Virus record (IMG/VR): IMGVR_UViG_3300038299_000353
Span: 19,211 to 83,210 of that record
Origin: a virus
Taxonomy: Duplodnaviria; Caudoviricetes
Strand: one strand, 5' to 3'
Length of the DNA stretch: 64,000 nt
This document shows positions 5,025 through 64,000 of the stretch, one piece after another. Both the position numbers and the translations under genes were made by a program. Numbering within the stretch: the first letter of the stretch is position 1; each line of letters opens with the position of its first letter. The notes under the pieces were generated by a model. That model saw only the letters and a list, made by a program, of their open reading frames with translations, was not told where the DNA came from and did not search any database.

Positions 5025-5030
5025 AACTAT

Positions 5031-8361: not shown

Positions 8362-8379
8362 GTGTCTAAGTTTAGAATT

Positions 8380-8407: not shown

Positions 8408-8413
8408 AATAAT

Positions 8414-8737: not shown

Positions 8738-8738
8738 T

Positions 8739-8766
8739 TTCTTTGTAGGGTTTTTTAACTGTAATA
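8739..8766 (+). promoter_or_regulatory. Putative late promoter variant TTCTTT-N15-TGTAATA
   Basis: Same TTC-to-TGTA spacing; TGTA begins 13 nt before ATG 8773. Confidence 0.55.
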
Positions 8767-8772
8767 ATAGTT

Positions 8773-9228: not shown

Positions 9229-9671
9229 TGATAGTATTGACCGACAGTCAGCAAGATAGTGTTAATGATGGAATGATGAGTTTGCATAATTTTTTTGCTA
9301 GTAAAAACAAATTATTTGCTATCAAAAAAGGTACTACTACTGTTATTAGTGAGAGTAGCGCTCATAACTCTTATTATCAAAATAGCATTGAGAATAGTAA
9401 AACTGTTGAAACTCAAACCAGTGGAATGTTTTTGGCTAGGGCATATTATCTAGACAGGGGTACTGAATTTAAACCAATAGACGGCAATCAGGGTAGTGTT
9501 GCAGCAAGCCCTAGAATTAAGCTAGTAACTGATATAACGGGAAGAGATTTTTTAGAAGACTCAAAGGACGTTTATTGGGATGAAGAGTTTTATGATTTAA
9601 TTTCAGAACCAAGAAGACACGGCTTGCTGCAAAACAACTTCTACACTTACTTCCTAGAGAAAATCAACTAA
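9228..9671 (+). CDS. Putative head closure (stopper) protein
   Basis: Synteny, 147 aa, beta-rich, TAATG coupling. Confidence 0.5.
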   Translation: MIVLTDSQQDSVNDGMMSLHNFFASKNKLFAIKKGTTTVISESSAHNSYYQNSIENSKTVETQTSGMFLARAYYLDRGTEFKPIDGNQGSVAASPRIKLVTDITGRDFLEDSKDVYWDEEFYDLISEPRRHGLLQNNFYTYFLEKIN

Positions 9672-10237
9672 TGGCAATCTTCAAGGCACAGATAAATAAG
9701 AAAATTACGAAAGCACTAACTGGAAGAAAGGCTAGGTCTAGCGCAATAAAAAAAATGTCTGCCGATTTCAAAAGATCTAAGAGACAGTTCTTGTCGGAGG
9801 TTGGCTCTGATAGGTCGTCACAAATGGTTCAGTCTGATGATAAAACAAGAGGTTACTTCGGCTTAGAGCCATCACAAAATCCAGTACAAGATATAAAAGA
9901 ATCTTTCGAAGAAAAAATTCAACTGAATACTAGGCCTAGCACTACTAGAGATAAAAATAGAGCATTTTACAAGTTTCAAATACAATATCCATCAAGGCCA
10001 GAAATTTATAATGATGATCGATTGAGTCTACCGTGGACTGCAAAGACTTGGGTGCAAGCGTTGCAGGAGGGGTTAGGAAGTATTGAAAAATTCTTATTTA
10101 AGCCAGGTGCTGGTAGGTCTGAGCTTGGTTATCAGATTAAAAACTCAATAAACAGGCAGAGCGAGCCAAGAGATGGTTCGTATCTAGACAGATTAAGAAG
10201 TCTTTTTGAAACAAAACTCAGAGGGGGAAATAGATGA
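9671..10237 (+). CDS. Putative neck/tail-completion protein
   Basis: Basic 188-aa protein in the neck cluster; translationally coupled. Confidence 0.45.
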   Translation: MAIFKAQINKKITKALTGRKARSSAIKKMSADFKRSKRQFLSEVGSDRSSQMVQSDDKTRGYFGLEPSQNPVQDIKESFEEKIQLNTRPSTTRDKNRAFYKFQIQYPSRPEIYNDDRLSLPWTAKTWVQALQEGLGSIEKFLFKPGAGRSELGYQIKNSINRQSEPRDGSYLDRLRSLFETKLRGGNR

Positions 10238-11070
10238 TACCGCAATACGATCATAAGCTAGGGTCTTACTTTACTCTATATCTAGAAAACAGGCTCTTAG
10301 AGAAGGGGCAGGCTTTTACTAATACTACTGGAATCTTTTACCCAAACGATCAAAATAATATTAATGGACTAACCTTTTCAAATAGTCCTTATGGTCAGTG
10401 GGTTTATGATCACTCAATTACTGGTGCTATAATTCCAAGTGGAGTTTATGTAAATGGTGAAGAGGTGAATAGGGGTACTAGTGGATTGTCTATAGACTTT
10501 TTAAATGGTGGCGCTTATCATGAAGACTTTGGAGACTCACCAGTGTCGGGAGCATTCGCATACAAGGACTTTAACGTATACTTTAAACCAGAAAATGAAA
10601 CTCAGGTTTTATTGAGAGAAGCTTTTAGATCCAAGGACCCATTAAACTTTTTAACTGGATCGAATAATTTAAGAATAAATGCCCCATGCATTATAGTCAG
10701 TTCTAAGAATAGCTCTAGCGAGCCTCTCGCATTTGGTGGCCTAGATGAAGTAACTTATAACTTACAGACTTTAGTTTTAACTGATAATTACTATGATTTG
10801 GATGGAGCTTTATCTATATTTAGAGATTTGAGGGAAAATTACTTTTCGGTAGGAGGCTTTGAAAAAATACCTTGGGACTTTAAGGGTGACTTAAAAGATC
10901 CAGAATATAGCTACAATGATATCAACGCAGCATTTAGCGGTGGGTATGAAAAAGCTTATATTGATAAGGTGACTATAAACTCTACAAATAGTGTAGATAA
11001 TGAATTTTCAGAGTTTAATATAGGCTATGCAGAATTTTCGATTATAGCCTATAGGTTTCCAAGAAAATGA
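10234..11070 (+). CDS. Putative tail terminator/neck protein
   Basis: Directly before the tail tube gene; PCIIVS...PLAFGG pattern; several S/T-G sites. Confidence 0.55.
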   Translation: MIPQYDHKLGSYFTLYLENRLLEKGQAFTNTTGIFYPNDQNNINGLTFSNSPYGQWVYDHSITGAIIPSGVYVNGEEVNRGTSGLSIDFLNGGAYHEDFGDSPVSGAFAYKDFNVYFKPENETQVLLREAFRSKDPLNFLTGSNNLRINAPCIIVSSKNSSSEPLAFGGLDEVTYNLQTLVLTDNYYDLDGALSIFRDLRENYFSVGGFEKIPWDFKGDLKDPEYSYNDINAAFSGGYEKAYIDKVTINSTNSVDNEFSEFNIGYAEFSIIAYRFPRK

Positions 11071-11098
11071 TTCACAGTCTCGCAAATAAAATGTATTA
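11071..11098 (+). promoter_or_regulatory. Putative late promoter TTCACA-N15-TGTATTA (tail tube)
   Basis: Exact motif copy in the intergenic gap. Confidence 0.7.
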
Positions 11099-11127
11099 AC
11101 TATTATAACCCAACCTTTTTTAAAACT

Positions 11128-12357
11128 ATGGCAAAAAGAATTCAAACAAGATATGAAAGTGCTGGCCTCTTTGTAGGCCCTTCGCCAGCAACTGGCAGAC
11201 ACTTTGCAGATGGTCTTTACGGTTACACCACTCTATTAAGTGGATCAAGCGGTGATAACCAAATCAGACCACTATTCAGAGTACAGTCGTTCTCCGACTC
11301 TTTCGACAACCCTCTTCAGAACGTTAATCAATTTGGACAAGCTACTACTCTTGCCAAATTAGCTACTTCTGCACCGACCCCAACCTTCGATTTCACGTAT
11401 TTCACTAATAATGGATTGAACGAAGCTATTCTGGGCTTTCCAGTGTCCCTTGATGCTAGCACTGTTGCTGGAAATACAACTGGCTTGAGAAATTGCCTGT
11501 CTGGATTCTTTGATTCTACAAATGATTCCAAGAACTATTTCGCGCAATTCGTCCCAGAAGGTAAGTCCGTTTATGGAGATACCTCTGCAGATGACCTAGA
11601 CTTCGTAGTTTGCCTTTCAAATGGCTTCATTACTAATTATGAAGTTAGCGCAAGTGTTGGCGGGTTCATGGAATCTACAGTTTCTGTTGAAGGTTCTAAT
11701 TACGTAGTTAATTCTAATAGTACTGGCAACATTTCTCCAGCAATTTTCCCAGAAAATGGAGACAAGGTTACTGGGTGGCAATATGATATTCCTGCAATCT
11801 CACAAGACTCCACTGGAGCTTTTGCTGGTGCAGGTTCTACAATGCCAGCGGTCATCAAACAAGGTGGAATTAAGCTTAACATCAGCACTCTTTCGGGTAA
11901 CATGGGTGTTAACATTACAGAATCGAATATCAATTCGTTTTCCGTTAGCGTTCCAGTTGCTCGTGACAACCTTGAAAGACTAGGAAGTCAATTCGTTTTT
12001 GCTCGCCCATTGCAAACACCAATTGATGGAACAGTAAGCTTCGATTTTAATGTCACTGATATGACGACAGGTTCTCTTGTTGATCTATTCAACGGCACAT
12101 CGAACACTGAGTTTGACTTTAGTATTGTAACTGCTGGAAGTACTGGTAATTCGGTAGATACAGATCAATTCGCTATTGTTGTTAGAGGTGCTACCTTCGA
12201 ATCGGAAAATACATCTCTTGATATCGGATCTGCAAGAAACGGTTCTGTAACATTCCAAGTCCCACTTGGTACTGTTGATGAAACTGGAAAAGGCATATTC
12301 TTCAGCGGAGCCGCTACAGAAGCAGATCGTAACGCGAGATACGCAGGTCGTTCATAA
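11128..12357 (+). CDS. Major tail tube protein
   Basis: 409 aa beta-rich, RVQS...NQFGQ, followed by a terminator and the tape measure; no sheath gene seen. Confidence 0.75.
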   Translation: MAKRIQTRYESAGLFVGPSPATGRHFADGLYGYTTLLSGSSGDNQIRPLFRVQSFSDSFDNPLQNVNQFGQATTLAKLATSAPTPTFDFTYFTNNGLNEAILGFPVSLDASTVAGNTTGLRNCLSGFFDSTNDSKNYFAQFVPEGKSVYGDTSADDLDFVVCLSNGFITNYEVSASVGGFMESTVSVEGSNYVVNSNSTGNISPAIFPENGDKVTGWQYDIPAISQDSTGAFAGAGSTMPAVIKQGGIKLNISTLSGNMGVNITESNINSFSVSVPVARDNLERLGSQFVFARPLQTPIDGTVSFDFNVTDMTTGSLVDLFNGTSNTEFDFSIVTAGSTGNSVDTDQFAIVVRGATFESENTSLDIGSARNGSVTFQVPLGTVDETGKGIFFSGAATEADRNARYAGRS

Positions 12358-12381
12358 ATTTTAAATATTCATTTAAAAAAC

Positions 12382-12418
12382 AAAGCCCATTGATTTTTTT
12401 ATCAGTGGGCTTTTTTTT
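12382..12418 (+). terminator. Rho-independent terminator after tail tube
   Basis: AAAGCCCATTGAT...ATCAGTGGGCTTT hairpin plus T8 tract. Confidence 0.85.
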
Positions 12419-12437
12419 AGTGTAATAGTATATAGGC

Positions 12438-15400
12438 ATGGCTAGATCTGATTTAGAAATATTAGCGGAAGTAAAACTCTCAAACACAAGAGAGTTTAAT
12501 GCTCAGTTGCGTGGTCTTGAAAAACGTAAAGTTATAATTGACACAAAGCGAAGTGAGCAGGCTTTAGGCAGAATTACAGGCAAGGCAAATGAGTTTACTA
12601 AATCACTTGAAGCTTCTAATGCCCGTGTCATCGCTTTCGGCGCTTCTGTGGCCGTCATTGAAGGGGTAAGAAGAGCCTTCCTAGAATTGGCTACCACCGT
12701 AGTACAGGTGGAAAGTAGCTTGAATGCTATTAACTCCATCTTCGGAAGAAGTAGCGATACGATATCGAAGTTTGGTGACGAGCTGTTTAAGGTTGCTAAG
12801 AATACTGGTCAGGGATTTCAGCAAGTAGCTGAAGCTGCACAGGAATTTGCCAGACAGGGCTTGAGCGTAGAGCAAACTCTAAAGAGAACAAATGACGCTC
12901 TGATATTAACTCGACTAACAACTTTAAACACAGAGAAAGCAATTTCTGGTTTAACTGCGGTTGTTAACGGTTTTGCATCCTCTGCTATAACGACTACTGA
13001 CGTCATAAATAAGTTGAGAGCAGTTGAAACTGCTTTTGCGGTTTCTTCTACAGATCTAATTGATGCGGTTTCTAGATCGGCATCCGTTGCTCAGGATGCT
13101 GGCATATCGTTTGAAGAATTGCTGGGTTTCATTACTGCGATAAAACAAAGAACTGGTTTGGGTGGCGCTACTATTGGTCAAGGTCTGAAGACTGCTTTAA
13201 CTAGACTTAATTTACCTACTAGAATCGCACAGTTGAAAGAACTTGGGGTCGCTGTTGATGAATCTGCCGCAACCTTTGATAACCTAGTAACAGCATCTGT
13301 AGCCATTGATAAAGCTCAAAAGGACGGGAACAGAAGTCTTGCCACTCAAATATCTACAGTTGTTGCTGGCCAGTTCCAGGTTTCAAAATTGTCGGCCCTA
13401 TTTAGAGATTTAGCATCCCAACAAAGTATTGCTGGAGGAGCGACAGACGCTGCGACCAAGGCAACTAATGAAGCTATTCTAGCCAACTTAGCTTACAATC
13501 AAACTATTGAGGGTGTTAGTAAGCAAATCTCTGCCAATATAAGTCAAATTTTTGCAGGCCTTGGCGAGGCTGGGCTTCAAGACTTCTTCAAGTCTATTGT
13601 AACGGATATAAATGTATTGCTAGAAGCTCTTCAAGGCAAAGATATTGGAGGTGGGTCCTTTTTGGCAAACCTTACCAAGGACGTGCTTTTACTAGCTAAT
13701 GATCTTAAGCTTTTAGCGCCACTTGCTGAAGGGTTTGTAAAAGTCTTGACTGGTCCTGCATTTGTAACTGGCTTGGCAATTATTGCCAATACTTTAAAAA
13801 ATGTATTCACTCAGGGTGGCGCAAGTTTACTTCAGCTCAGTGGTATAAACAAAGTTTCAGAAAAACGAATAGCAAATCAGAGAGTTATTCAAAGCTTGTT
13901 AGCTCAAGCTACCTCTTCCGAGTTAAAACAGCTAGAATTAGCAACTTCACAGGCACAAAAAGAACAAATTATATTAGGCTTGCTGACTAAACAACTTGCT
14001 GCGCAAAAAGCCTTAGAATCTAGTTCGATTAGAACTGCGCAAAGCTTGTCGAGGCAGGGTGTATCTCTTGGTGGATCTGTTTTTACTGGAGATGTAAGTA
14101 GGAAAGGAAGAGGAACAAAGGGTTTTGCTGGAGGAACTTTAGGGGGAGCAATAGAAAATGAAAAAAGGGCGATCAGCAATGGCGTTGGTGGAGCTAGTTC
14201 AAACGCGCAAGTAAAAGTAGTAAATTCATTCAATTATGGAAAGGGCAAGATTGGGCCAGCCGTATTGAATAGTGATGAGATTTTAATACCTAATAAGAGT
14301 GGCGACATTGTATTGAATAGAGATATGGCAGGATCTTCTGCTATTAGCTCTATGGGTGGAAACTTTGCCAAAGGCAAGATCCCTATGATCAAGGGATTGA
14401 CCTACAAGGCCTCTCAGGATGGCTTTAGCAAGCTTCTGATGGGTAACACCAAATTTCAGTCTGTAAGCTACTACAGTAAGAATTCTGACTCAGTTAGACA
14501 GCTTACAGGGGTTCAGCATTCATCTATGGTTGGTCAGTCATCTAAGGCTGGAAAGCCGCCTCCTAAGGGGTATTCTAGCTGGAAGCAATACCAAAGGGAG
14601 AATCAGATGGTTACTCTTAGAGGTATGCAGGGTGGCGAACAAGTAACCAAAAATGTAAAACTCTCTAATATAAGAAAGGTTAGAGCTGGGGGAGCTACCT
14701 ATATACCTAATTTTGCAGAAGGCAGGGTCAATATTGGAGATTCCGAAATAAAAAGGATGATGAAGAGGCTGAGATCTGGTCAATCTCTAACAAACAGAGA
14801 TTTGAGAAGGATCGAATCTGGTATTGCATCGGGTCAATCATTTAAAATTCCACCCCTTTTAAGGGATGCTGCGGCTAAGCAGGCTTCGTTTGCAAGTCAG
14901 AAAGCTGCTAGAGGTTCTGGTAGAGCTACACCAAAAACTCCACCAAGCGGTGCTGGTGAAAGGACTAGAATATTTCCGACACGAACATCTTCCGTTAGAG
15001 ATAGTCAAGGGAGATTTGTTGGAACAGGTGGAGCATCAGATGTAAGCTCTTCAGGTTCCAGAGCTTTTAGCACTAATGATTTTCAGCCGCCAGCAGTAAT
15101 ACAGCCAAGTTTAGCCGAGCAGGCAAAAAATGCTCCACCTAAAGCAACTGACTTTAGTAAATCTTTGGAAGAGAGGCAGTACAAGCAATTTAAAAACGAT
15201 TTTACTGCTGGCAAAATACCTAGCGGAGGTGGCGATGACACGTTCAAGAAATTTAAAACAAGGCTGCAGTTTGATCTTATAGAAGCCGAATTAAAAAAAG
15301 AGTCTAAAGCTCAGGGAAGACCTGTATCATTTGCTGAGCTTGGTAGGTCAAAAGAAGGTAGGAAGCTTAGGCAAAATATTGTAAAAGCTGGACTAGTTAA

Positions 15401-27571: not shown

Positions 27572-30500
27572 ATGTCATTCTCAATTGGAACCCAGTCAGG
27601 AAACTTTTCTTATCAAGCCTTTGTACGGCCTCAAAGGGACGATCATATTTCATTTGGGTTTTCATTTATAAATACTGGAGATGGCTCTATTGAAGATAGG
27701 ATTGTTTTTAGTGGCGAAAGCGGAAAGCTTTATGATTCTGATAATAACTTTTTCTACTCTTACAAGAATCAAGATACTTTCTCCGTTTCTGGGAATAAAA
27801 TTGGGAATTATAATAATTATTTCGTTAATAATGTACTTATAAATTCTTACCATGAAAATGGCACTGGCTACATAAATAACTTTACTGAAAATGGAGTAGT
27901 TTCGGAACTTAGTTTAATGGGAGTAGAGCCAGTAATTAGTATTAGTGGAATATTCGAAAATAGTAATTTAACTGGAAGTTTAAAGGTTAGCAATAATTCT
28001 AGTGAGGGAATATCATTTAATATATTTTCTGGAAGATTTGAAGAATTATCTAACTTTTTCAATTTCAATACTGGACAAAATACTGGAATAATAGAGGGTC
28101 AATCTAGTAGAGACTTTTTAATTAATCAAATTTCAAATGTTACTACTGGAACTGGAGTACTGATACCAATATCTTTTGTTTCAGACTTTGGAACTTTTAC
28201 AAAAAGCGGCTTAATTAGTTTTACGAGGGAATACGAATACTTATTGAGTTTATTGGGACCAGACTTTTTGGATTCTACTGGAATATTTAATTATAATGTT
28301 TTATTTTCTGAAAGATACGGTCCAAATCTTACAGATGATCCATTCGGACTTCATTTTACATTTGGTAATATTAGTGGCTATAGTGGTTATGCTGACTATG
28401 ATATTAAAACTGGTAAAATAGCTGGGTCAATTCCAGGATTTGATATTTCTAGAAATATAATAGGCACTGGTAATTTAACTGGAATGATTGAGTCCAGCTT
28501 GGGCGGCGGGTATTTAACACTCTCTGGCTATAGCACTGGTCTTGAAATTAATTATACTGGCAATATACCATCTCAGATTTATACTGGAGAAACAGTATTT
28601 GCTACTGGAGAAATGTCGTATCCCTTTTTAACGTCCTCTAGTGGGATTGTAACTGGATTAGATATTGGATTCATAAGGAATGTTAGTGGAGGATATAACT
28701 TCACTGAAACTGGCGCTATTGCATTCACTGGTCAACAATCTCTATTTCCAAGTTTTACGACTGGAATCATACTTAGTGGAAATAATACTGACGGAGATCC
28801 GATAGTAACATCGAAAAATGACTCTCTTTGCTTTTCCTTCGACATTCAGTCGTTTACCGCTACATCAAATCAAACAAGAAATAAGGAATATGCCAGTAGA
28901 TTTAGCGGATTTGCAACTGGCGCATTTGATGGGATTGCGTATTACCCAGGAGATCAGGCTGGCTTAGATATAACCACTACTATTAGTGGATTTAAGGTTT
29001 CTGGAACTCCAGGGGCATTCATAGCGACTGGAACTGGGGTTTTTGACCTCATTGGAACCTTTCCGATGGACACTAAAGATTCCCAAGGAAATTTTGTTAA
29101 TAATGGCTGGACGATAGATCTATCTGACCGAATTTTAACTGGACTAGCAACTGGCTTATTACCAGAAGATCCAAATCTTACTGGATTGGTCGCACTTGGT
29201 ACTGGAGTAACTGGCGCTGGATCTAATCAAACTTCTAATGTTTATTATTCTAATATATTTAGCGGGTTTTCGAGTGGACTTTTTGATGGACAAATGAGAA
29301 TTCCTGCTGACCAAATTGGTTTAATTGGAACAAATATTATTAGCGGATTTAAGTTTTCTGGAACTCCAGGGGCATTCATAGCGACTGGAACTGGGGCTTT
29401 TGATATTACTGGAATCAATAGAATTGATATGAAGTATCCAATACCCGATTACAGTTTGTATGTTAGTACAGAGCTTACTGGACTTGCAACTGGAATTTTG
29501 ACGGAAGATCCAAATTTAACTGGAGCTATATTTAGTGGAATTGGAATAACTGGAATCGAATCTGTATTTACTACTGGAGTTTTGACGGGTAGCGGAATAA
29601 TTACTGGGCAAGCTTCTACATTAGCAAGTGGATTTACTGGAATAGATTTTACTTATAATTACATTGCAAAAGGTAATCTTGTGAGTGGAATGACTAATGA
29701 AATTACTAATGAAGTTACGGGCAAAAGATATGTTGCTACTGATTTGCCAATGCTAGGAAATTATGATTATTTGTTCCGATCTATTCGATTAGGCTTAGCT
29801 TTCAGCGAGAACTTTACTGTTCAAGCACAAGACATTTCTTCTGGATATGTTGATTTTACTGGTCAGTTTCAGTATTCAGGAACTGGCGCATATGTGCATC
29901 CTCAAGAAATTACTGGTATAGGATATACTGGACTTGGCCTCATAGGCTCAATTTCTGAACCAGTAAAAGATATAATTTTCAATGGGGAAAGTGGGGTAAC
30001 TGGTCGATCTCTAACAAACACTGGAGCGCTTATTGACGATAGCATTTCTTTGAATGGAAATTCCTACGGAATCCCCGTTTCCAGCGTTTATACAAGATAT
30101 AATCCCTTTGTTTTTAGTGGGAACAGTGGAATACTTCTATATTCTGATCACACCAACGAAAAAGCCCCTATATTAACATTTTCTGATAACGATGCAAGCA
30201 GGGGTTCATATATTCATAACCCAGTATGGCTCAATAGAAGATTGCTGAGTGGTACTTTCAATCTTGATCCGTCACCCATGAGAGTTGGCATAAGTCCCAA
30301 GTACTTTTTATCTGGAACTGGAGTTTACAAAAGCCAAAAAAGTAGAAGCTACAGAATTACTATTTATACTGGGAATAACTTTGTGGATATGGTCTATAAA
30401 GAAAGTGAAGTCTTAAGCCTTAATTCAAGTACTAATTTCAATCAGTATTTTAGATCTGAGTTTATATCCGAATACGATCCTTTTAATGTCTACTTTCTAA

Positions 30501-32824
30501 TAACTTCAAACACCGAAGATTTGGAACCTAGTGGGTTTAATTATTTCTCTTTTGAGGACACCGACAACAGCAAGAATCCACCTCAGTTCGGCCCTCGTCA
30601 GTTTAATACGTTCTTCGATAGCTCTGGGCAGGGATTTCGCAGCTTTTTAACAAATTACTCTTCACCGACTGATGCTAGCGGATATCTACTATCTGACGAT
30701 CAAATATATCCAACTGGGTCTACATCTAATAGGATCGCCATCGCTCTTCCAAACACCATTAGCGTTACAAGTGGCTTGAATGTATTTCAAACTGGGTTTA
30801 ATATGACTGGATATGCTGAAAATGTCAGCGTTGAGGGTACTGGAATGTCTGGAGTTGGCGGTACTATTGAAGCAACTGGTGAAAATGCTGGATTTTTATA
30901 TGCCCTTCAAGATAAAAATCTTTTTCCTAATACTTCATACCCCAATGAAATATTCACTCAAACGACTGGAAATTTTAATGGCGAGAAAAGTATAAATAAT
31001 TTTGAGATTCCTACTGGAATTTTTGTAGCTAATGAGGTTGGCTTTTTAAGAAAAAGAGTAGACTCTACCAACGTAAAAATCGACGGTTATACATTTGATT
31101 TTTATGAGCGAATACAGCGACTAAGAATAGGCTCTTATCAAAGTAGTATTGAAGAGATTAGCGGTATCATGAAAGCATATTGTGATAGAATTGGGTATAA
31201 TGTATATTTTGGAACTGGCAAAATAGGATTTACTTCTTATCCCGAATTAACTTACCCAGTCGGAGGTGCATTAGGTCTTGGTCTTGGCAGTAGCTCAAGT
31301 ACTGCTTATGCTCCTTGGAGTAAAGATAAGAAATATGCAGTCAGGCAAAGTGGAGGACTTTATACTTTAGTCGAAGGAGGGCGTGTAGACGGTATGCCAA
31401 CAGGGGGGTATCCTACCCAAGGATCAAATCTTCCATATTCAGGTATAATGTCTGGAAAAGTAGCTGCTGAAATTCCAATTACCTTTGCTACTGGATATTC
31501 GTTTTTCAATTCTGGAGTTAGTGGAAATATTTATAGTACAGCTTTTACTGGCATGGAAAATACTACTTCCAAATACTTTATAAGTTCATTAAGTCAAGGA
31601 GATATTTATATAAATCCCTTTACTTCTAGCGGAATAATACCCTCTACTGGATTTGGAACTGGAATAGACCAAATTACGGTACTTGCTGGACAGAAGTCTG
31701 GCGACTTTGTCCCGACCCTTTTAAATATGTTTCCTTTTTCTGGAACTGGAGTAAGGGCATTATCCAATAGCCCACCATTGGGTGGGGATAATGACCTTTA
31801 TGCGGATAACTATATATTTTCGGGCGTTCGTACTGGAATATCATTTGCTACTGGCGATGACAGTACTGGTTCTTTATATAGTATAGCTTATACGGGAATC
31901 CAAACTGGGCCTGCTAGATGGTATATAGATAATTTAGACTTCAATGGCGATATTGTAGACCTAGATGCTACAGTCACTGGCTATGTGCCAACCATAGCAA
32001 GTGGAACTGGAATAGACCCTATTACGATCCTTGCTGGACAGCAGTCTGGCGAATTCGACCAAGCCATTCTCAATATGCTTCCATTTAGTGGAGTGAATTT
32101 GCAGACATTAACCTATGACCAACCAGTAGGAGGGTTTGAGGATTCTTATGCAGATAATTTTATATATTCGGGAGTTAGAAAGGGAGTCAACTTTGCAACT
32201 GGGATATTAACTGGATCGTTCGATTATACTGGGATATTAAACTTCACTCAAAGAAACTTACAAAAAACGGGAGTCAAGATTGGAATTGGAGTAATATCTG
32301 GAAACATTACTGGAATAGTATATCCAGGAAGCGGAGAGTTTAATTTCTCTGGAATTCAAACTGGACTGCCGCAGTTTATAAATTCAGTAGTACCAACAGG
32401 ACAGGAGGTATTTTTACTATCTTCTGGAAATGTTCCTATAACTCCATTCACTGGAAACTTAAATAGCTCTTTTATTGGAACTGGATTTTATACTGATTTT
32501 GTTAATCCTGCTGACTTAGAATCTTTGAGTTACGGCTTCCCTATTCCAAATTATATAAAGACTTTTACTGGAGAGTATGAAATTCTTACTGGTATTAACA
32601 ATACTGGATTTGCTAAATGCACTGGTTTCTTTAATGTGCCTTCTATTAATCTAACTGGCTATTCAGGTTATGTTACTCTCACTGGAGATGATGACTTAAA
32701 TATCCAGATGGTAAAGAAGAAATACTTTGCTGATTCTGTAGATTTAAATATAATTAAATATAGTGGTATCGGTACTTTAGATACATCATACGATAACACA
32801 GGATCTTTAACTTTTATAGGATAA
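27572..32824 (+). CDS. Large (1750 aa) S/T-G-rich tail fibre/baseplate protein
   Basis: Beta-rich; roughly 140 TG+SG dipeptides by hand count; two internal duplications. Confidence 0.7.
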   Translation: MSFSIGTQSGNFSYQAFVRPQRDDHISFGFSFINTGDGSIEDRIVFSGESGKLYDSDNNFFYSYKNQDTFSVSGNKIGNYNNYFVNNVLINSYHENGTGYINNFTENGVVSELSLMGVEPVISISGIFENSNLTGSLKVSNNSSEGISFNIFSGRFEELSNFFNFNTGQNTGIIEGQSSRDFLINQISNVTTGTGVLIPISFVSDFGTFTKSGLISFTREYEYLLSLLGPDFLDSTGIFNYNVLFSERYGPNLTDDPFGLHFTFGNISGYSGYADYDIKTGKIAGSIPGFDISRNIIGTGNLTGMIESSLGGGYLTLSGYSTGLEINYTGNIPSQIYTGETVFATGEMSYPFLTSSSGIVTGLDIGFIRNVSGGYNFTETGAIAFTGQQSLFPSFTTGIILSGNNTDGDPIVTSKNDSLCFSFDIQSFTATSNQTRNKEYASRFSGFATGAFDGIAYYPGDQAGLDITTTISGFKVSGTPGAFIATGTGVFDLIGTFPMDTKDSQGNFVNNGWTIDLSDRILTGLATGLLPEDPNLTGLVALGTGVTGAGSNQTSNVYYSNIFSGFSSGLFDGQMRIPADQIGLIGTNIISGFKFSGTPGAFIATGTGAFDITGINRIDMKYPIPDYSLYVSTELTGLATGILTEDPNLTGAIFSGIGITGIESVFTTGVLTGSGIITGQASTLASGFTGIDFTYNYIAKGNLVSGMTNEITNEVTGKRYVATDLPMLGNYDYLFRSIRLGLAFSENFTVQAQDISSGYVDFTGQFQYSGTGAYVHPQEITGIGYTGLGLIGSISEPVKDIIFNGESGVTGRSLTNTGALIDDSISLNGNSYGIPVSSVYTRYNPFVFSGNSGILLYSDHTNEKAPILTFSDNDASRGSYIHNPVWLNRRLLSGTFNLDPSPMRVGISPKYFLSGTGVYKSQKSRSYRITIYTGNNFVDMVYKESEVLSLNSSTNFNQYFRSEFISEYDPFNVYFLITSNTEDLEPSGFNYFSFEDTDNSKNPPQFGPRQFNTFFDSSGQGFRSFLTNYSSPTDASGYLLSDDQIYPTGSTSNRIAIALPNTISVTSGLNVFQTGFNMTGYAENVSVEGTGMSGVGGTIEATGENAGFLYALQDKNLFPNTSYPNEIFTQTTGNFNGEKSINNFEIPTGIFVANEVGFLRKRVDSTNVKIDGYTFDFYERIQRLRIGSYQSSIEEISGIMKAYCDRIGYNVYFGTGKIGFTSYPELTYPVGGALGLGLGSSSSTAYAPWSKDKKYAVRQSGGLYTLVEGGRVDGMPTGGYPTQGSNLPYSGIMSGKVAAEIPITFATGYSFFNSGVSGNIYSTAFTGMENTTSKYFISSLSQGDIYINPFTSSGIIPSTGFGTGIDQITVLAGQKSGDFVPTLLNMFPFSGTGVRALSNSPPLGGDNDLYADNYIFSGVRTGISFATGDDSTGSLYSIAYTGIQTGPARWYIDNLDFNGDIVDLDATVTGYVPTIASGTGIDPITILAGQQSGEFDQAILNMLPFSGVNLQTLTYDQPVGGFEDSYADNFIYSGVRKGVNFATGILTGSFDYTGILNFTQRNLQKTGVKIGIGVISGNITGIVYPGSGEFNFSGIQTGLPQFINSVVPTGQEVFLLSSGNVPITPFTGNLNSSFIGTGFYTDFVNPADLESLSYGFPIPNYIKTFTGEYEILTGINNTGFAKCTGFFNVPSINLTGYSGYVTLTGDDDLNIQMVKKKYFADSVDLNIIKYSGIGTLDTSYDNTGSLTFIG
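28900..29530 (+). repeat. Internal tandem duplication, 357-bp (119-aa) offset
   Basis: ISGFK(V/F)SGTPGAFIATGTG and LTGLATG..EDPNLTG occur twice; near-identical DNA at 28981 and 29338. Confidence 0.85.
31654..32202 (+). repeat. Second internal duplication, 348-bp (116-aa) offset
   Basis: GTGID(Q/P)IT(V/I)LAGQ(K/Q)SG...YADN(Y/F)I(F/Y)SGVR occurs twice, at 31654 and 32002. Confidence 0.85.
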
Positions 32825-54588: not shown

Positions 54589-55355
54589 TCTAAAATATAA
54601 TCTGATCTGCCATCGTAGTTAGGGGAGTCTAATCCTTCTATTGGCATGGAATAATTGCATGGGATAAACCCACAGTCTTGAATTTCCTTTTTATTGACAT
54701 ACAGCATTTCTAATGTTTCTGGAAAGTCCATGTATCTTGGACAATGGTTATTCCCATGAGCATGGAATAGTACAAAGTGCTTATTGAGCCAGTTTAAGAA
54801 CTTTTCTTTTTTAGGCATATCCTTTTTTATGTCTAAAATTTTCTGCAACACATTCCATTCTGGCGGATGCTCTTCAATGAGGCCATGACACTCAAAGGAT
54901 ATTTGAGATATGTGTTTTGAAATTATATCTAAATTATCTTCCATGAAAATGTCATATTCACATCCATCTATATCCATCTTAATAGTATACTTACTTTCGT
55001 TGGATTTGAATATCTTATCGAAGTGGGATTTAAAATTATCTTTAGTAACAAACTCCTTATAGAAGGATGCGTTATCAGGAAGATTTTTTCTAGCTGGGTA
55101 GCCGTCTATGGAGCCGTCATACATATGAATTTCTTCACAGATTTCAAAAACATCCTCTTCAAAAGAGCATCCATTTGGATCGCTATTTATGCCATAAGAT
55201 AAAACTCTTGATCCTTCAAAAATCTCCTTAGCCATAACATAGCTGCCATCTTTTTGCCCATATCGAACTCTAGTTAATCCAGATATGTCATTAGGCGTAA
55301 TTAATTTCTTAAGGCTAGAATACTTATTAGGACTTTTTTCATCAAAGTAAATCAT
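54576..55355 (-). CDS. FkbM/Methyltransf_22-like SAM methyltransferase
   Basis: RYGQKDGSYV, LSYGI, SFE, KMDIDGCEY, QISFECH, HAHGNN. Confidence 0.75.
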   Translation of the reverse strand: MIYFDEKSPNKYSSLKKLITPNDISGLTRVRYGQKDGSYVMAKEIFEGSRVLSYGINSDPNGCSFEEDVFEICEEIHMYDGSIDGYPARKNLPDNASFYKEFVTKDNFKSHFDKIFKSNESKYTIKMDIDGCEYDIFMEDNLDIISKHISQISFECHGLIEEHPPEWNVLQKILDIKKDMPKKEKFLNWLNKHFVLFHAHGNNHCPRYMDFPETLEMLYVNKKEIQDCGFIPCNYSMPIEGLDSPNYDGRSDYILDWWL

Positions 55356-56107
55356 TTAGTATTCTCCTTTGCAAACTCTTCTGAGCCAATGTGGGTAGCA
55401 TTAATCGTATTAGGATCAAAGAAAGCAAATGGGGTATTCACTGTTGCAAAAAGCCCCTTCATGAACATGCCGCTAAGTAATTCGCAATGGGATTTGAATC
55501 TCAAATCATTTCTGTTGATCTGTCTAACTGCCGCATACCAGTCTCTAGTCCTCATTAGAGTTGGCTGAAATGTTATTGTTGGACCATATTGAGTATAATC
55601 TTCATTTTGAATATATATATCTTTTGTTATTTTAGATGCTTTGGATAGGTCTGTGTTTGTATCAGCATTGATTCTAACACAAAGGATATCCTTGTTGCCC
55701 TTCATCAATCTTATGCCTTCCTGAAGGAGGTACATAAGGGGCTTTTGGGTATTTATAATCCAATCATCTTCATGGAAAAGAATAAACTCATTATCGTGGA
55801 CAGAGTCTTGGTTCATTAGGGTCTCCATATCTTTGAAATACTCAACTGCATGATTATTGTTTTTTCTATTCCAGTTGCCTTTTGTTGTAGATACGTCAAT
55901 TTGCTTTGATTCGAAAAAAGATTTTAAATCCTCGCACTTGTCTTCACCTTCTTGGCTATCACATACCTTTATGTGGGCAGATTTGTTAGAAAAACAACCT
56001 TCGTCAATCTTAGAAAGATGATCAACTGTATCTTTAGCACAATCTTTGTAGCCAAAATGACCTTTGGTTGTTGTATACAATGTTAATGATATGGGTAAGC
56101 TATTCAT
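55352..56107 (-). CDS. GT-A-fold glycosyltransferase
   Basis: FILFHEDDW, TFQPTL, THIG; located in the GT cluster. Confidence 0.7.
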   Translation of the reverse strand: MNSLPISLTLYTTTKGHFGYKDCAKDTVDHLSKIDEGCFSNKSAHIKVCDSQEGEDKCEDLKSFFESKQIDVSTTKGNWNRKNNNHAVEYFKDMETLMNQDSVHDNEFILFHEDDWIINTQKPLMYLLQEGIRLMKGNKDILCVRINADTNTDLSKASKITKDIYIQNEDYTQYGPTITFQPTLMRTRDWYAAVRQINRNDLRFKSHCELLSGMFMKGLFATVNTPFAFFDPNTINATHIGSEEFAKENTK

Positions 56108-56112
56108 GATAA

Positions 56113-60976: not shown

Positions 60977-60995
60977 GCAATATTATTGTGTAAAA
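60968..60995 (+). promoter_or_regulatory. Putative late promoter variant TTCTTT-N15-TGTAAAA
   Basis: Same spacing as the other copies; TGTA begins 15 nt before ATG 61004. Confidence 0.5.
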
Positions 60996-61003
60996 TACCT
61001 ATT

Positions 61004-62041
61004 ATGGACACTCGTAATTTTTTAAAAAACGGAAAACAAGTATTGGAAGTATCTTTCTCAGAAGATGAGCTATGTTTTATAGAGATGAGTGAAGCGTCTC
61101 TTGCAGAATCCTTGAAAAAGAAGGTAAAAGAACATAACGAAAAAGTCGGAGACGACAAAAGAAAGAGAGTTACCCTCTCTAAACTAGAAGCGGTATATAA
61201 AAGAGGAGTGGGAGCCTATCGAACAAACCCTCAGAGTGTTAGACCAAGCGTAAAAAGCTCGCAGCAATGGGCTATGGCGCGAGTCAATTCCTTCTTGCAT
61301 GCATTAAGAAATTTAAAATACAAAAGTGGAAAACACGACACTGACTTATTGCCAAAGAGCCACCCAATGTCTGGTCCCTCTGGAAAAGATGGTAGACCTA
61401 AAAAAGCCTCTAAAGAAGCTCCTGAAGGTTATCACTATATGCCTGATGGAAAATTAATGAAAGACTCTGATCATAATGGTGCGGCAAAGTGTAAAGCTGG
61501 AATGGAAGATTATATTTTTTCTACTCCAGAAGGCGCAAGAAAAAAATCAATTCAAATTGGTTTTAAGGGAGAAATTCACACAGACAAAATGGCTGACGGA
61601 ACTCCTATGTATTTTCCAGGACCAAACGAAGACGTTTTCCAAAAATGGTTTAACGAAAATGATTCCCATGATTCTTCTTATAACAAACCAAAGAGTATAA
61701 TGTCTAGTGATTGTGACGATGATTTGGATATAGATGGAAAAGAAGTTGATTCCTTTACCTTTGCGGCTGAATTGAAAAAGGGTGTCAAATTGAATAAACC
61801 ATTTAGAACACCAAAGGGTCCAAAGAAGTTTTCGGTGTATGTTAAAAACGAAAAGGGAAATGTAGTAAAGGTGAATTTCGGAGATCCTAATATGGAAATA
61901 AAGAGAGATGATCCAGCTCGCAGAAAGTCATTTAGAGCTAGGCACAAGTGCGACACAAATCCAGGTCCCAAATACAAAGCCCGCTACTGGTCCTGCAGAA
62001 TGTGGGAATCTGGAGAAAGCGTTAAGGATATTATATCTTAA
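61004..62041 (+). CDS. Mosaic multi-module basic protein, possibly virion-internal
   Basis: Modules VYKRGVGAY...QWAMARVNSF, APEGYHYMPDGKLM, FSTPEGA...GFKGEIH and LNKPFR...FGDP...RRKSFRARHKC...YWSC. Start revised to 61004. Confidence 0.65.
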   Translation: MDTRNFLKNGKQVLEVSFSEDELCFIEMSEASLAESLKKKVKEHNEKVGDDKRKRVTLSKLEAVYKRGVGAYRTNPQSVRPSVKSSQQWAMARVNSFLHALRNLKYKSGKHDTDLLPKSHPMSGPSGKDGRPKKASKEAPEGYHYMPDGKLMKDSDHNGAAKCKAGMEDYIFSTPEGARKKSIQIGFKGEIHTDKMADGTPMYFPGPNEDVFQKWFNENDSHDSSYNKPKSIMSSDCDDDLDIDGKEVDSFTFAAELKKGVKLNKPFRTPKGPKKFSVYVKNEKGNVVKVNFGDPNMEIKRDDPARRKSFRARHKCDTNPGPKYKARYWSCRMWESGESVKDIIS

Positions 62042-62460: not shown

Positions 62461-62569
62461 CCTATAAATTATGGTGTAATAAATATATGGTTATATTTAT
62501 TAAAATATTTAATAAGGCTCTATTTTATTTTTAATTTTTATAAAAATTAATTTAAATATTTATTACACT

Positions 62570-63193
62570 ATGGCAGACAAAAAAATATCACAACTAACAG
62601 AATTAACTTCAGCTGACGCAGTAACTGACTTCTTGCCAGTTGTAGACTCTAGCGCAGATGAGACTAAAAAGATTAGATTTAGTAATTTGCCACTAAGCGA
62701 TTCGGCTGCAAGATCTACGTATCCATTCACTACAGACTTTCACGGTGCTGTGGAGCAAACTCGGAATATCACTGCTCCGTTGGTTTATATTACTGGTTAC
62801 GGCGACGACGACACTTTGACTAGTATCTATATTGGGAGCAATGTTCCCAGCATCGGGACATCCGCATTTATTCGTTGTGATCTCTTGAGTGATGTAACCA
62901 TTCCCAACAGCGTCACCAGCATCGGTCTAAACGCATTTCGAAGCTGCACTGTCCTGAATAACTTAACCATTCCCAACAGCGTCACCAGCATCGGGGATAG
63001 CGCATTCAAAAACTGCGTTAACTTACAGACAATTAACTGCAACGTAGATTTTTCTATTATAAATGTTCTAGCTAATGTTTTCAATAACACACCTTCTCCT
63101 CTTACTATAAACGCGCCATCTGGACTGGGTTGGACAGCTGGATCTGGTCAAACAATTGGCGGGAACACAAACGTTACCGTTAACATAATATAA
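62570..63193 (+). CDS. BspA-type (LRR_5) leucine-rich-repeat protein with MADKKISQL N-terminus
   Basis: TIPNSVTSIGxxAFxxC 23-aa repeats. Confidence 0.88.
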   Translation: MADKKISQLTELTSADAVTDFLPVVDSSADETKKIRFSNLPLSDSAARSTYPFTTDFHGAVEQTRNITAPLVYITGYGDDDTLTSIYIGSNVPSIGTSAFIRCDLLSDVTIPNSVTSIGLNAFRSCTVLNNLTIPNSVTSIGDSAFKNCVNLQTINCNVDFSIINVLANVFNNTPSPLTINAPSGLGWTAGSGQTIGGNTNVTVNII

Positions 63194-63211
63194 AGTCAAT
63201 TCAGAACCACA

Positions 63212-64000
63212 ATGGCAAACAAAAAGATATCAGAACTCACAGAACTAACCTCAGCTGAATCAGCAACTGATTTTTCACCAGTTGTAGACTCTAGTGAAAG
63301 TAAAACTAAAAAAATTAAATTAGCCAACTTTCCTCTGAGTGATGCCTCCAAAAATAACGCATACCCATACACGATAGATGTACAGAATGGCGTAGAGCAA
63401 ACTAGAAATCTTACGACGATTACTTCTTCAGATGGGTATAGTTATACAGGCCAACCAAGCAGTATTTACATTGGAAGTAACGTAACCACCATTGGGAGTT
63501 TCGCATTTCCGTTTGCTCCATTTACGAGCGTCACCATCCCCGACAGCGTCACCAGCATCGGGAGTTACGCATTCGTCGGAACTAATCTGACTAGCGTCAC
63601 CATTCCCGACAGCGTCACCAGCATCGGGTCTAACGCATTCTCTTACTGCAGCAGCCTGACGAGCATCACACTTCCAAATAATGTTGATTTCACCAGCATC
63701 CAGGATGGAACTTTGGGAGGCTGCAGCGACCTGTCGAGCGTCACCATTCCCGACAGCGTGACCAGCATCGGGAATGCCGCATTCAGTGGCTGCACTGACC
63801 TGCCGAGCGTCACCATTCCCGACAGCGTCACCAGCATCGGGTCTAACGCATTCTATTACTGCAGCAGCCTGAAGAGCATCACACTTCCAAATAATGTTGA
63901 TTTCACCAGCATCGGTGATAGCGTATTCCGATCAAGCGGCCTGACGAGCATCATCATTCCCGACAGCGTCACCACCATTTTCTTTGGCGCATTCTTTGAC
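63212..64000 (+). CDS. Second BspA-type LRR protein, partial (runs off window; absent from ORF track)
   Basis: Hand translation MANKKISELTELTSAESATDF...TIPDSVTSIGSYAF...; open to base 64000 with about eight repeats. Confidence 0.88.
   Translation, partial: MANKKISELTELTSAESATDFSPVVDSSESKTKKIKLANFPLSDASKNNAYPYTIDVQNGVEQTRNLTTITSSDGYSYTGQPSSIYIGSNVTTIGSFAFPFAPFTSVTIPDSVTSIGSYAFVGTNLTSVTIPDSVTSIGSNAFSYCSSLTSITLPNNVDFTSIQDGTLGGCSDLSSVTIPDSVTSIGNAAFSGCTDLPSVTIPDSVTSIGSNAFYYCSSLKSITLPNNVDFTSIGDSVFRSSGLTSIIIPDSVTTIFFGAFFD
63593..63913 (+). repeat. 108-bp direct repeat (63593-63700 and 63806-63913)
   Basis: Copies differ at two positions only (TCT/TAT and ACG/AAG). Confidence 0.9.

What the first reader, a model, noticed from the sequence alone, without database searches (positions are those of the whole stretch)
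62570..64000. Tandem LRR genes built from homogenised high-GC cassettes with variable positions
Seen: two paralogs share an AT-rich N-terminus (MAxKKISxLTELTSA...DF.PVVDSS..TKKI). They then switch to BspA repeats whose DNA scaffold ACCATTCCC(A/G)ACAGCGTCACCAGCATCGG is nearly identical at 62897, 62966, 63533, 63599, 63743, 63812 and, more loosely, 63953. Residues in SIGxxAFxx vary freely. GC is 39/60 at 63721-63780 against 19/60 at 63301-63360. A 108-bp block is duplicated with two mismatches. Identity at synonymous sites implies ongoing recombination or conversion. Inference: a shuffleable receptor-binding repertoire, loosely analogous to variable LRR receptors, using repeats acquired from a higher-GC source. 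The array may continue past the window.
Basis: partly seen in the sequence, partly recalled or inferred. Interest (0 to 1): 0.72.

Follow-up and report, generated by a model that had tools for sequence, protein, structure and literature searches.

The report
Hypervariable LRR tail-fibre gene array
An uncultured marine phage carries a row of fibre-like genes whose outer part is built from leucine-rich repeats, and this locus differs in repeat number and content between otherwise nearly identical phages, as expected for host-recognition genes.

Summary
Two co-oriented genes (62570-63193, 207 aa; 63212-64000, cut by the record's end) share an AT-rich N-terminus. Both then switch to BspA-type LRR_5 repeats whose third-codon GC is 0.63, against 0.29 expected from the phage's own codon use.

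The window is the end of an 83-kb fragment of a tailed marine phage. The first 40 residues are a module that other viral contigs place on proteins matching tail-fibre or virion-structural families. I therefore read these genes as fibre or receptor-binding proteins with an LRR distal domain; this is inferred, not shown.

A record that is 97-99% identical upstream drops to 70-83% at this locus. Relatives carry three such genes of 230 / 354-610 / 198-1187 aa. They differ by whole-repeat indels, one of exactly 23 aa, and by a swapped C-terminal cap.

"Homogenisation" is not supported. Repeat units are no more alike within a gene (0.60) than between phages (0.61). Only one recent three-unit duplication is near-identical.

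No reverse transcriptase or DGR signature was found, and nothing suggests VLR-like assembly.

The 23-nt core recurs mainly in Verrucomicrobiota and related (PVC) bacteria. That fits a higher-GC origin, but the best match is 78%, so the transfer is neither recent nor resolved.

Verdict: a new variant of a known kind.

The parts
62461..62569 (.). AT-rich intergenic region with imperfect inverted repeats. It is the left edge of the variable island and a likely promoter region (inferred).
   Evidence: Inverted repeats at 62471-62512 / 62530-62571. Identity to the close relative is 96.2% up to 62490 and resumes at 81.6% from 62567. No promoter-like site above shuffled expectation.
62570..63193 (+). 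Gene 1, 207 aa, complete: N-terminal module, neck, 3 LRR_5 units and a C-terminal cap.
   Evidence: ORF. PF13306 at 1.3e-22. AlphaFold2 model with mean pLDDT 86.1. LRR_5-type solenoid resembling 4h09, 4fs7, 4cp6 and 6mlx.
62570..62689 (+). Gene 1 N-terminal module (aa 1-40), MADKKISQLTELTSAD...D..PVVD.S...TKKI. Putative virion-attachment adaptor.
   Evidence: Conserved in 31 aligned viral proteins, after which the sequences diverge. Carriers elsewhere match tail-fibre or virion-structural PHROGs. Low model confidence, pLDDT 52-80.
62810..63040 (+). Gene 1 LRR units (aa 81-157), GC3 0.558.
   Evidence: One 23-aa unit fewer than in relatives L006 and L013.
63041..63190 (+). Gene 1 C-terminal cap (aa 158-207), GC3 0.26. 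'...INCNVD...SPLTIN.P.G.GWTAG.GQTIGGNTNVTVNII'.
   Evidence: The same cap type ends LRR proteins in L004, L005, L006, L009, L014 and L016. No DNA match in the 137 bacterial loci.
63212..64000 (+). Gene 2, at least 263 aa, truncated by the end of the record: N-terminal module, neck and at least 8 LRR units.
   Evidence: Full-length relatives are 354, 556 and 610 aa.
63212..63331 (+). Gene 2 N-terminal module (aa 1-40).
63458..64000 (+). Gene 2 LRR units, GC3 0.667.
63593..63700 (+). First copy of the 108-nt duplicated block, part of a 213-nt three-unit segmental duplication.
63806..63913 (+). Second copy of the 108-nt block. It has 2 mismatches, both non-synonymous.

Best explanation
These are the first two genes of a three-gene operon-like array of fibre or receptor-binding-type proteins. 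The phage is an uncultured tailed marine phage of about 37% GC.

Each protein has four parts:
- a conserved 40-residue N-terminal module, which I infer docks it to the virion;
- a short neck;
- a BspA-type LRR_5 solenoid of variable length;
- a C-terminal cap.

The locus is a hypervariable island. It diversifies in three ways:
- in-register gain and loss of 22-25-residue repeat units and multi-unit blocks, by unequal recombination or slippage between the conserved 29-60-nt scaffold stretches;
- replacement of whole alleles and caps by recombination with related phages;
- amino-acid change concentrated at four exposed positions per unit.

The GC-rich synonymous sites are an inherited template sequence of this repeat family. 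Its core is shared with LRR_5 genes of higher-GC Verrucomicrobiota and related (PVC) bacteria. They are not a product of this phage's codon usage or of ongoing homogenisation.

Shown: domain identity, composition, strain-to-strain variation, and absence of RT in the DNA held. Inferred: virion attachment, receptor binding, the recombination mechanism, and a foreign origin of the repeats.
For: Phage identity: TerL, an 1884-aa tape measure, DnaB, primase, RNR and a UvsX-like recombinase.

Domain: LRR_5 at 1.3e-22 and 1.3e-51. The fold resembles solved LRR_5 surface proteins.

N-terminal module:
- 74 representatives in 1.84 billion proteins.
- I scanned 61 of the 74 and left out 13 short ones. Of the 61, 31 carry LRR_5, 5 carry the 'phage tail repeat' PF12789, 1 carries YadA head repeats and 1 a lectin-like domain.
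- Of 53 module-bearing ORFs from 79 viral loci (21 near-duplicates, already-analysed relatives or short ORFs left out), 7 are LRR proteins. Of the other 46, 25 match PHROGs of category tail or virion structural protein, 4 match only unknown-function families and 17 match nothing.

Hypervariable island:
- G001 is 98% identical over 15,854 nt, 97% over 1,800 nt and 99% over 950 nt upstream.
- Identity is 96.2% over the last 6,394 nt and falls to 70-83% from gene 1 onward.
- Flanking genes have dS 0.05-0.18 and dN at most 0.012. Gene 1 has dS 0.39 and dN 0.115. The gene 2 N-terminus has dS 0.45 and dN 0.125.

Cassette variation:
- An exact 23-aa unit indel in gene 1.
- Gene 2 homologues of 354, 556 and 610 aa share their ends and differ by internal repeat blocks. 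One has the other cap type.
- Gene 3 is 198, 338 or 1187 aa.
- A recent 213-nt duplication lies in the window.

Variable positions: entropy about 3 bits and pN 0.56-0.70 at four positions per unit, against pN of 0.05 or less at I, V, I and F.

Composition:
- GC3 is 0.634 observed against 0.287 expected.
- LRR ORFs exceed other ORFs in 19 of 19 viral loci (17 distinct contigs), with a median difference of +0.16.
- Candidate structural genes, including the tape measure, show no such bias: C/(C+T) is 0.24-0.36 against 0.62 in gene 2.

Not a chimera: contigs from other runs bridge the AT-rich/GC-rich junctions, for example X4 at 62991-63562 with 0 differences. The same architecture occurs in contigs from several metagenomes.
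Against: - The genes lie about 27 kb from the tail module (window 12438-35432) and beyond the replication genes. They sit beside glycosyltransferase-like genes. In relatives a sulfotransferase follows the array. That context could also suit a non-virion role.
- The two PHROG families the proteins match (35892, 18805) have no known function.
- No virion proteome, no host and no binding data exist.
- The N-terminal module is modelled with low confidence and has no relative among solved structures by sequence.
- The tail-fibre labels of other carriers come from their non-homologous downstream parts. The loci were found with peptide patterns such as MANKKISE, so conservation of that stretch is partly ascertained.
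- Oligomeric state was not tested.
- I could not map the variable positions onto a face of the solenoid, because no coordinates were available to scripts.
Confidence: 0.6

Rival explanations
1. The LRR proteins are not virion parts. They are made in the infected cell as adhesin-like or host-mimicking surface or secreted proteins: a moron or cell-surface remodelling module, together with the neighbouring sugar-modifying enzymes.
For: They are located away from the tail module, next to glycosyltransferase-like genes. A sulfotransferase lies downstream in relatives. The closest solved folds are bacterial cell-surface LRR proteins. The PHROG families are of unknown function.
Against: The bacterial-type N-terminus is replaced by a hydrophilic 40-residue module. 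Elsewhere that module heads proteins matching tail-fibre or virion-structural families, in 25 of 46. The module was not found in 4 LRR-rich bacterial genomes. Strain-level hypervariability is the pattern reported for host-recognition genes of marine phages (PMC3909814; abstract and passages read).
Confidence: 0.2
2. Targeted hypermutation by a diversity-generating retroelement, or another dedicated diversifier, creates the variable positions. The codons there keep their third base (NNT NNC ... NNT NNC) as DGR targets do.
For: In 50 phage units, third-base conservation at the variable codons is T 92%, C 70%, T 44% and C 78%, while bases 1-2 vary. The two mismatches of the 108-nt duplicate are both C in one copy against A in the other. 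The records are only 49-58% complete.
Against: No RVT_1 match in G000, G001, G002 or G003. No repeat pair shows adenine-confined mismatches: the highest share is 0.62 (8 mismatches) and 0.59 (27 mismatches), among 20 pairs. Variation is spread over dozens of units in three genes and not confined to one 3' variable region. Third-base conservation at variable codons is no higher than at scaffold codons (82-98%). A young repeat family with selection for amino-acid change therefore explains it.
Confidence: 0.04
3. The GC-rich third positions reflect translational selection for C-ending codons in a highly expressed structural gene, and not foreign ancestry.
For: Nearly all scaffold codons end in C: AGC, GTC, ACC, GAC, ATC, TTC, TGC.
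Against: Candidate structural genes of the same phage, including the tape measure, have C/(C+T) of 0.24-0.36 and GC3 of 0.24-0.36, against 0.62 and 0.54 in gene 2. The N-terminus and cap of the same genes have GC3 of 0.26-0.34. Some scaffold codons are fixed on A or T (ATT, GCA), so the pattern is position-specific and not compositional.
Confidence: 0.05
4. Assembly artefact: bacterial LRR DNA was mis-joined to a phage contig at a repeat.
For: The contig ends inside the repeats. Counting the window, 5 of 14 pattern-bearing viral contigs end inside an LRR ORF. Logan contigs fragment into pieces of 84-477 nt in this region.
Against: The same N-terminus/LRR/cap architecture, with the same composition jump, occurs in independent contigs from other metagenomes. 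Contigs from runs of other studies cross the junctions: X4 at 62991-63562 with 0 differences and X3 at 63011-63553 with 11 differences. The reading frame is continuous through every junction.
Confidence: 0.02

Closest known systems
BspA-type LRR_5 (PF13306) cell-surface proteins of bacteria, e.g. solved structures 4h09, 4fs7, PcpA 4cp6, TpLRR 6mlx
   Same: The same repeat family by HMM and the same fold. The consensus is ..IP.SVTSIG..AF..C..L.. in units of 22-25 residues. The 23-nt DNA core of the unit is identical to many copies in Verrucomicrobiota and Lentisphaerota genomes.
   Different: The N-terminus is a phage fibre-type module and not a secretion signal. This rests on sequence inspection; no signal-peptide predictor was run. 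The genes sit in a 37%-GC phage. The phage units have their own synonymous consensus outside the core: GCA against GCG, ACC against ACG, ATT against ATC. The cap sequences have no DNA match in the bacterial loci.
Modular phage tail fibres and receptor-binding proteins with a conserved N-terminal anchor and exchangeable distal domains; 'metaviromic islands' of marine phages (Mizuno et al. 2014, PMC3909814)
   Same: A conserved N-terminus with a variable C-terminal part. There are several paralogues in tandem. The locus is the most divergent one between nearly identical genomes.
   Different: The distal domain is an LRR solenoid whose length changes by whole units. No characterised LRR receptor-binding protein turned up in my paper searches. 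The genes lie outside the tail module.
Uncharacterised 'leucine-rich repeat protein' or 'BspA family' entries of uncultured phages in BFVD/UniProt, and PHROGs 35892 and 18805
   Same: Structural matches at E 5.7e-6 to 1e-3 to such entries from uncultured Siphoviridae and Myoviridae. PHROG matches reach 1.4e-46.
   Different: Those entries carry automatic names only. None comes with a described function, an array structure or strain comparisons in what I saw.
Diversity-generating retroelements
   Same: A phage ligand-binding protein with variation focused on a few codons that keep their third base.
   Different: No RT, no TR/VR pair and no adenine-specific pattern. The fold is LRR and not the C-type lectin or Ig fold of known DGR targets; that last point is recalled, not tested.
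Variable lymphocyte receptors of jawless vertebrates
   Same: LRR units serve as the variable scaffold, and the number of units varies.
   Different: There is no incomplete recipient gene and no flanking silent cassettes. Each gene is complete, and the variation is between genomes and not somatic.

Membership tests
Pfam LRR_5 (BspA-type LRR) | Match to PF13306 above the gathering score (27.7 bits) | tested here: met
   80.5 and 174.2 bits. Three matches in the record, all at this locus.
Pfam LRR_5 (BspA-type LRR) | Right-handed LRR solenoid fold like the solved members | tested here: met
   The model has pLDDT 86.1. Foldseek probability is 1.00 to 4h09, 4fs7, 4cp6, 6mlx and 4gt6.
Bacterial BspA-like surface protein | Secretion signal and/or cell-surface anchoring domain | not tested
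   No signal-peptide tool was available. By eye the N-terminus is hydrophilic and is the fibre-type module.
Phage tail fibre / receptor-binding protein | N-terminal region shared with proteins annotated as tail fibres | tested here: met
   25 of 46 non-LRR carriers of the module match tail or virion-structural PHROGs. PF12789 is present in 5 of 61 representatives. The annotations are family labels, not experiments.
Phage tail fibre / receptor-binding protein | Encoded in or next to the tail/baseplate module | tested here: not met
   The tail module is at window 12438-35432. The LRR genes at 62570 onward follow the replication and sugar-enzyme genes.
Phage tail fibre / receptor-binding protein | Most variable locus between closely related phages | tested here: met
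Phage tail fibre / receptor-binding protein | Present in the virion and binds a host receptor | not testable with these tools
   No host or particle data.
Phage tail fibre / receptor-binding protein | Oligomer (usually trimer) | not tested
   The homotrimer job was never accepted because the queue was full.
Diversity-generating retroelement target | Reverse transcriptase nearby | tested here: not met
   0 of 4 records match PF00078. The records are 17-89% complete, so absence from the whole genome is not shown.
Diversity-generating retroelement target | Template/variable repeat pair differing only at template adenines | tested here: not met
   Across 20 repeat pairs, the highest one-base share is 0.62.
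Concerted evolution (gene conversion among repeats) | Units more alike within a gene or genome than between genomes | tested here: not met
   0.599 / 0.58 / 0.609 for 233 / 289 / 1248 unit pairs. The exceptions are recent block duplications at 91-97%.
VLR-like cassette assembly | Incomplete recipient gene flanked by silent donor LRR cassettes | tested here: not met
   All LRR DNA in the window and in relatives lies in complete genes, each with its own start, N-terminus and cap.

The most novel reading that the evidence does not exclude
The phage fibre genes and the surface LRR_5 genes of a marine PVC (Verrucomicrobiota-type) host draw on one shared pool of repeat cassettes. The nearly invariant 23-29-nt scaffold would act as a recombination handle. 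The phage, which encodes a UvsX-like recombinase and exonucleases, would use it to copy host repeat units into its receptor-binding genes. That would explain why the internal units stay GC3-rich in every phage lineage, while the N-terminus and cap have the phage's own composition.
Probability: 0.1. Interest if true: 0.75.

Novelty: new variant of a known kind. Interest (0 to 1): 0.45.

Why it matters
Host-recognition genes decide which bacteria a phage can infect, and for most marine phages they are unknown.

This locus offers a tractable candidate: a small, modular protein (207 aa in gene 1) with a predicted rigid LRR scaffold. Natural variants differ by whole repeat units and at four positions per unit.

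If these are receptor-binding proteins, LRR solenoids would join beta-helices, C-type lectin folds and Ig-like domains as phage recognition scaffolds. The 40-residue N-terminal module would become a useful marker for finding fibre genes in uncultured phages.

GC3 of the repeats is about twice that of the rest of the same gene. This is also a clean example of compositional mosaicism inside a gene. It hints at exchange of repeat DNA between phages and PVC bacteria.

Tried and rejected
- DGR: searched for RT in four records and for adenine-specific repeat pairs. Nothing found.
- Translational-selection explanation of the codon bias: rejected by comparison with candidate structural genes, including the tape measure.
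- Concerted evolution: rejected.
- Recent transfer from a sequenced bacterium: the best DNA match is 78% over 325 nt, to a 6.1-kb contig of an Opitutia MAG. The other matches are 68-72%. The N-terminus and cap have no match in the 137 bacterial loci.
- The N-terminal module was not found in four LRR-rich bacterial genomes. The tool notes that an empty answer shows little.
- Cultured relatives: TerL reaches only 24-28% identity to Clostridioides and Bacillus phages, so there is no host clue. LRR hits in GenBank phages are under 60% identical and unannotated.
- No tRNA genes. Promoter and terminator scans are at the shuffled expectation.
- The N-terminal profile has no match among PDB sequences. 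Pfam on the N-termini alone gives only chance-level hits.
- Contig laying: many joints between scaffold copies carry other letters in between, and a 41-kb contig in run X1 carries a variant gene 1 start (13 differences in 141 nt). At 90% likeness in metagenomes these may come from other phages or organisms, so I do not count them as within-population shuffling. The runs are contigs and not raw reads, so repeat-number variants within one population could not be tested.
- The homotrimer prediction was never run because the queue was full.
- Earlier notes of this scan: none exist for this genome.
- Papers: three searches found no described LRR_5 tail fibre. The nearest was a vibriophage tail-module protein with weak LRR similarity (PMC10945359; passages read).
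Full report
**What the window is.** The window is bases 19211-83210 of an 83,210-bp IMG/VR virus record classed as linear, with CheckV completeness 58%. The window's end is the record's end. The record has 37.5% GC. PHROG scans identify a large terminase, an 1884-aa tape measure, DnaB, primase, exonucleases, a UvsX-like recombinase, ribonucleotide reductase and several sugar-modifying enzymes. It is therefore a tailed phage. Its terminase is only 24-28% identical to any GenBank phage. It has no tRNA genes. Near-identical DNA is held by seawater and marine metagenome runs.

**The observation.**
- ORFs lie at 62570-63193 (207 aa) and 63212-64000 (open at the record's end).
- Their 5' parts are 77% identical over 136 nt.
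- The 29-nt scaffold is exact at 62897, 62966, 63599 and 63812, and has one change at 63533 and 63743. The GC counts of 39/60 and 19/60 are exact. A 108-nt block (63593-63700 against 63806-63913) has two mismatches. Both are non-synonymous.
- Both proteins match Pfam LRR_5, the BspA type.
- The composition jump sits at synonymous sites. GC3 is 0.33 for all CDS, 0.27 in the gene 2 N-terminus, 0.667 in the gene 2 repeats, 0.558 in the gene 1 repeats and 0.26 in the gene 1 cap.
- For the same amino acids, the phage's own codon usage predicts GC3 of 0.287. The observed value is 0.634.

**What the proteins are.** An AlphaFold2 model of gene 1 (mean pLDDT 86.1; the N-terminal 50 residues are weak) is an LRR solenoid. 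Its best solved matches are bacterial LRR_5 surface proteins. Its best viral matches are unnamed 'leucine-rich repeat' or 'BspA family' proteins of uncultured phages.

The informative part is the N-terminus. A search with residues 1-85 of gene 2 against 1.84 billion representatives found 74 proteins. I scanned 61 of them and left out 13 short ones.
- 31 carry LRR_5.
- 5 carry the 'phage tail repeat' family, 1 carries YadA-head repeats and 1 a lectin-like domain.
- 11 large proteins matched only internally, and I set those aside.

In IMG/VR, 79 loci encode the module. I scanned 53 module-bearing ORFs and left out 21 near-duplicates, already-analysed relatives or short ORFs.
- 7 are LRR proteins.
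- Of the other 46, 25 match PHROGs labelled tail fibre, minor tail or virion structural protein. Four match only unknown-function families and 17 match nothing.

An alignment shows about 40 conserved residues, MANKKISEL..L.......D.LP.VD.S...TKK..V.NL, after which the proteins diverge completely. This is the architecture of modular fibres: a common adaptor with exchangeable distal domains. I therefore read the LRR genes as fibre or receptor-binding proteins.

This is inference by shared module. The fibre labels belong to the non-homologous parts of the other proteins. The loci were found with peptide patterns from this very N-terminus. The genes lie about 27 kb from the tail module.

**The locus in relatives.** Record G001 (78 kb) is 98% identical over 15,854 nt, 97% over 1,800 nt and 99% over 950 nt upstream. 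It is 96.2% identical over the 6,394 nt ending at window 62490. From 62567 onward identity is 70-83%.

Flanking genes have dS of 0.05-0.18 and dN of at most 0.012. Gene 1 has dS 0.39 and dN 0.115. The gene 2 N-terminus has dS 0.45 and dN 0.125. The raised dS means the alleles are older than the flanks. That points to allele replacement by recombination and not only to fast local mutation.

Relatives carry three tandem genes, 12-18 nt apart:

| Record | Gene 1 (aa) | Gene 2 (aa) | Gene 3 (aa) |
|---|---|---|---|
| L163 | 230 | 610 | 338 |
| L162 | 230 | 556 | 198 |
| L160 | 230 | 354 | 1187 |
| L159 | 244 | at least 400 | not held |
| Window | 207 | at least 263 | not held |

- Gene 1 of the window lacks exactly one 23-residue unit present in L006 and L013.
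- Gene 2 homologues share about 180 N-terminal and about 130 C-terminal residues and differ by internal blocks of repeats. L162 ends in the alternative cap type.
- Downstream of the array, relatives have a sulfotransferase and a DUF4376 protein. From memory, DUF4376 occurs near tail-fibre assembly genes. That is a lead, not a test.
- Contigs of 4 of 4 laid runs continue past base 64000 with ten letters and then another scaffold copy. Gene 2 therefore goes on.

**Is it homogenised?** No. I took 60 units of 69 nt from the window, L006, L013 and L007. Mean identity is 0.599 within a gene, 0.58 between genes of one phage and 0.609 between phages. High identity occurs only in recent block duplications: 97% in the window, 91% twice in L006 gene 2. 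Many units have their best match in another phage. This is birth and death of units plus allele exchange, not concerted evolution.

Variation is concentrated at the two residues after SIG and the two after AF (about 3 bits; pN 0.56-0.70). The scaffold residues I, V, I and F have pN of 0.05 or less. The pN/pS ratios at the variable sites are about 0.9-1.9 but saturated. I claim only that these sites evolve at or above the neutral rate.

**Where the GC-rich scaffold comes from.** The exact 29-mer occurs in 13 other viral contigs. In 19 of 19 viral loci (17 distinct contigs) the LRR ORFs have higher GC3 than other ORFs, with a median difference of +0.16. The bias is therefore a family trait.

It is not expression-linked codon bias. 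Candidate structural genes, including the tape measure, have C/(C+T) of 0.24-0.36, against 0.62 in gene 2. It is also position-specific and not compositional: ATT, GCA and NNT codons are as fixed as the C-ending ones.

By their titles, assigned to phyla from my own knowledge:

| Group | Loci |
|---|---|
| Verrucomicrobiota lineages | 96 |
| Other PVC (9 Lentisphaerota, 2 Kiritimatiellota, 1 Sedimentisphaerales) | 12 |
| Other phyla | 11 |
| No taxon name | 18 |

. Several loci share a contig. Their median GC is 0.58.

In both phages and bacteria the peptide IP(D/N)SVTSIG is written almost only as ATY CCC RAC AGC GTC ACC AGC ATC GGG. Both serines are AGY in all but 2 of the 746 bacterial serine codons and in every phage one. 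Proline is mostly CCC and rarely CCG, and glycine is mostly GGG and seldom GGC. That looks like descent from one template and not convergence on GC-rich codons. The bacterial units were, however, ascertained with this very pattern.

Outside the core the phage units have their own consensus: Ala GCA against GCG, Thr ACC against ACG, Ile ATT against ATC. The best bacterial DNA match is 78% over 325 nt. A higher-GC, PVC-like origin of the repeats is thus plausible. It is not recent, the donor is unresolved and the direction is not proven.

**Alternatives.**
- DGR: no RT in four incomplete records and no adenine-specific repeat pair.
- VLR-like assembly: no silent cassettes, since every LRR stretch lies in a complete gene.
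- Chimera: contigs from other studies cross the composition boundaries without differences.
- A non-virion role remains the main rival, because of the gene neighbourhood.

**Comparison with what is known.** Variable tail-fibre genes as 'metaviromic islands' between nearly identical marine phages are described in PMC3909814 (abstract and passages read). LRR proteins in phages exist as automatic annotations. My three paper searches found no characterised LRR_5 fibre.

The new elements here are:
- the LRR solenoid as the exchangeable distal domain of a fibre-type module;
- length variation by whole units;
- the three-gene array;
- the sharp intragenic codon mosaic with a core shared with PVC bacteria.

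**Verdict.** This is a new variant of a known kind, of moderate interest.

Noticed in passing
record bases 582-13331 (upstream of the window; L003): A cluster of small genes has raised GC3 (0.42-0.56) and C-ending bias, unlike the rest of the phage. It includes two 267-aa DUF932 paralogues, a DUF3846 protein and a GP88-family protein. It may be a second compositionally foreign region.
   Followed up: partly
window 28858-29057 / 29215-29414 and 31654-31854 / 32002-32202: Internal direct repeats of about 200 nt at 72-73% identity lie inside the 1750-aa gene (27572-32824) of the tail region. That protein has no Pfam or PHROG match.
   Followed up: no
window 55338-56108: One segment is only 87% identical to the close relative G001, within a stretch that is otherwise 97-99% identical. 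It covers the 251-aa ORF at 55352-56107, one of six adjacent minus-strand genes without PHROG matches. This may be a second variable spot.
   Followed up: no
whole record: Shine-Dalgarno-like 4-mers upstream of 82 crude ORF starts number 11. Random 17-mers give 11.0 +/- 3.1. The phage seems not to use SD sites. From memory, that is typical of Bacteroidota hosts, among others. It is a weak hint because the start codons were not curated.
   Followed up: partly
L014:1-6228: A protein of more than 2076 aa in a 59-kb viral contig strings together four LRR modules. Each is preceded by a '...DWGDGS.D...' domain and closed by the same 'SPLTINVP.GT.GW.AGTG..IGGNTNVTVNI' cap. An N-terminal 'GDWAVF' repeat region comes first.
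   Followed up: no
window 60986-62041: The 351-aa protein just upstream of the array matches DUF5824 (2.2e-7) and, weakly, DUF5754. It also matches PHROG 7595 of unknown function.
   Followed up: no
L162/L163, downstream of the array: In relatives a sulfotransferase (PF13469, 3.6e-16) and a DUF4376 protein follow the third LRR gene. They are almost identical between L006 and L013, which marks the right edge of the variable island.
   Followed up: partly
L012 (G003, 31,961-bp record, GC about 0.50): An LRR_5 protein with the same scaffold has a hydrophobic, signal-peptide-like N-terminus instead of the fibre module. The record may be a prophage or bacterial fragment.
   Followed up: no
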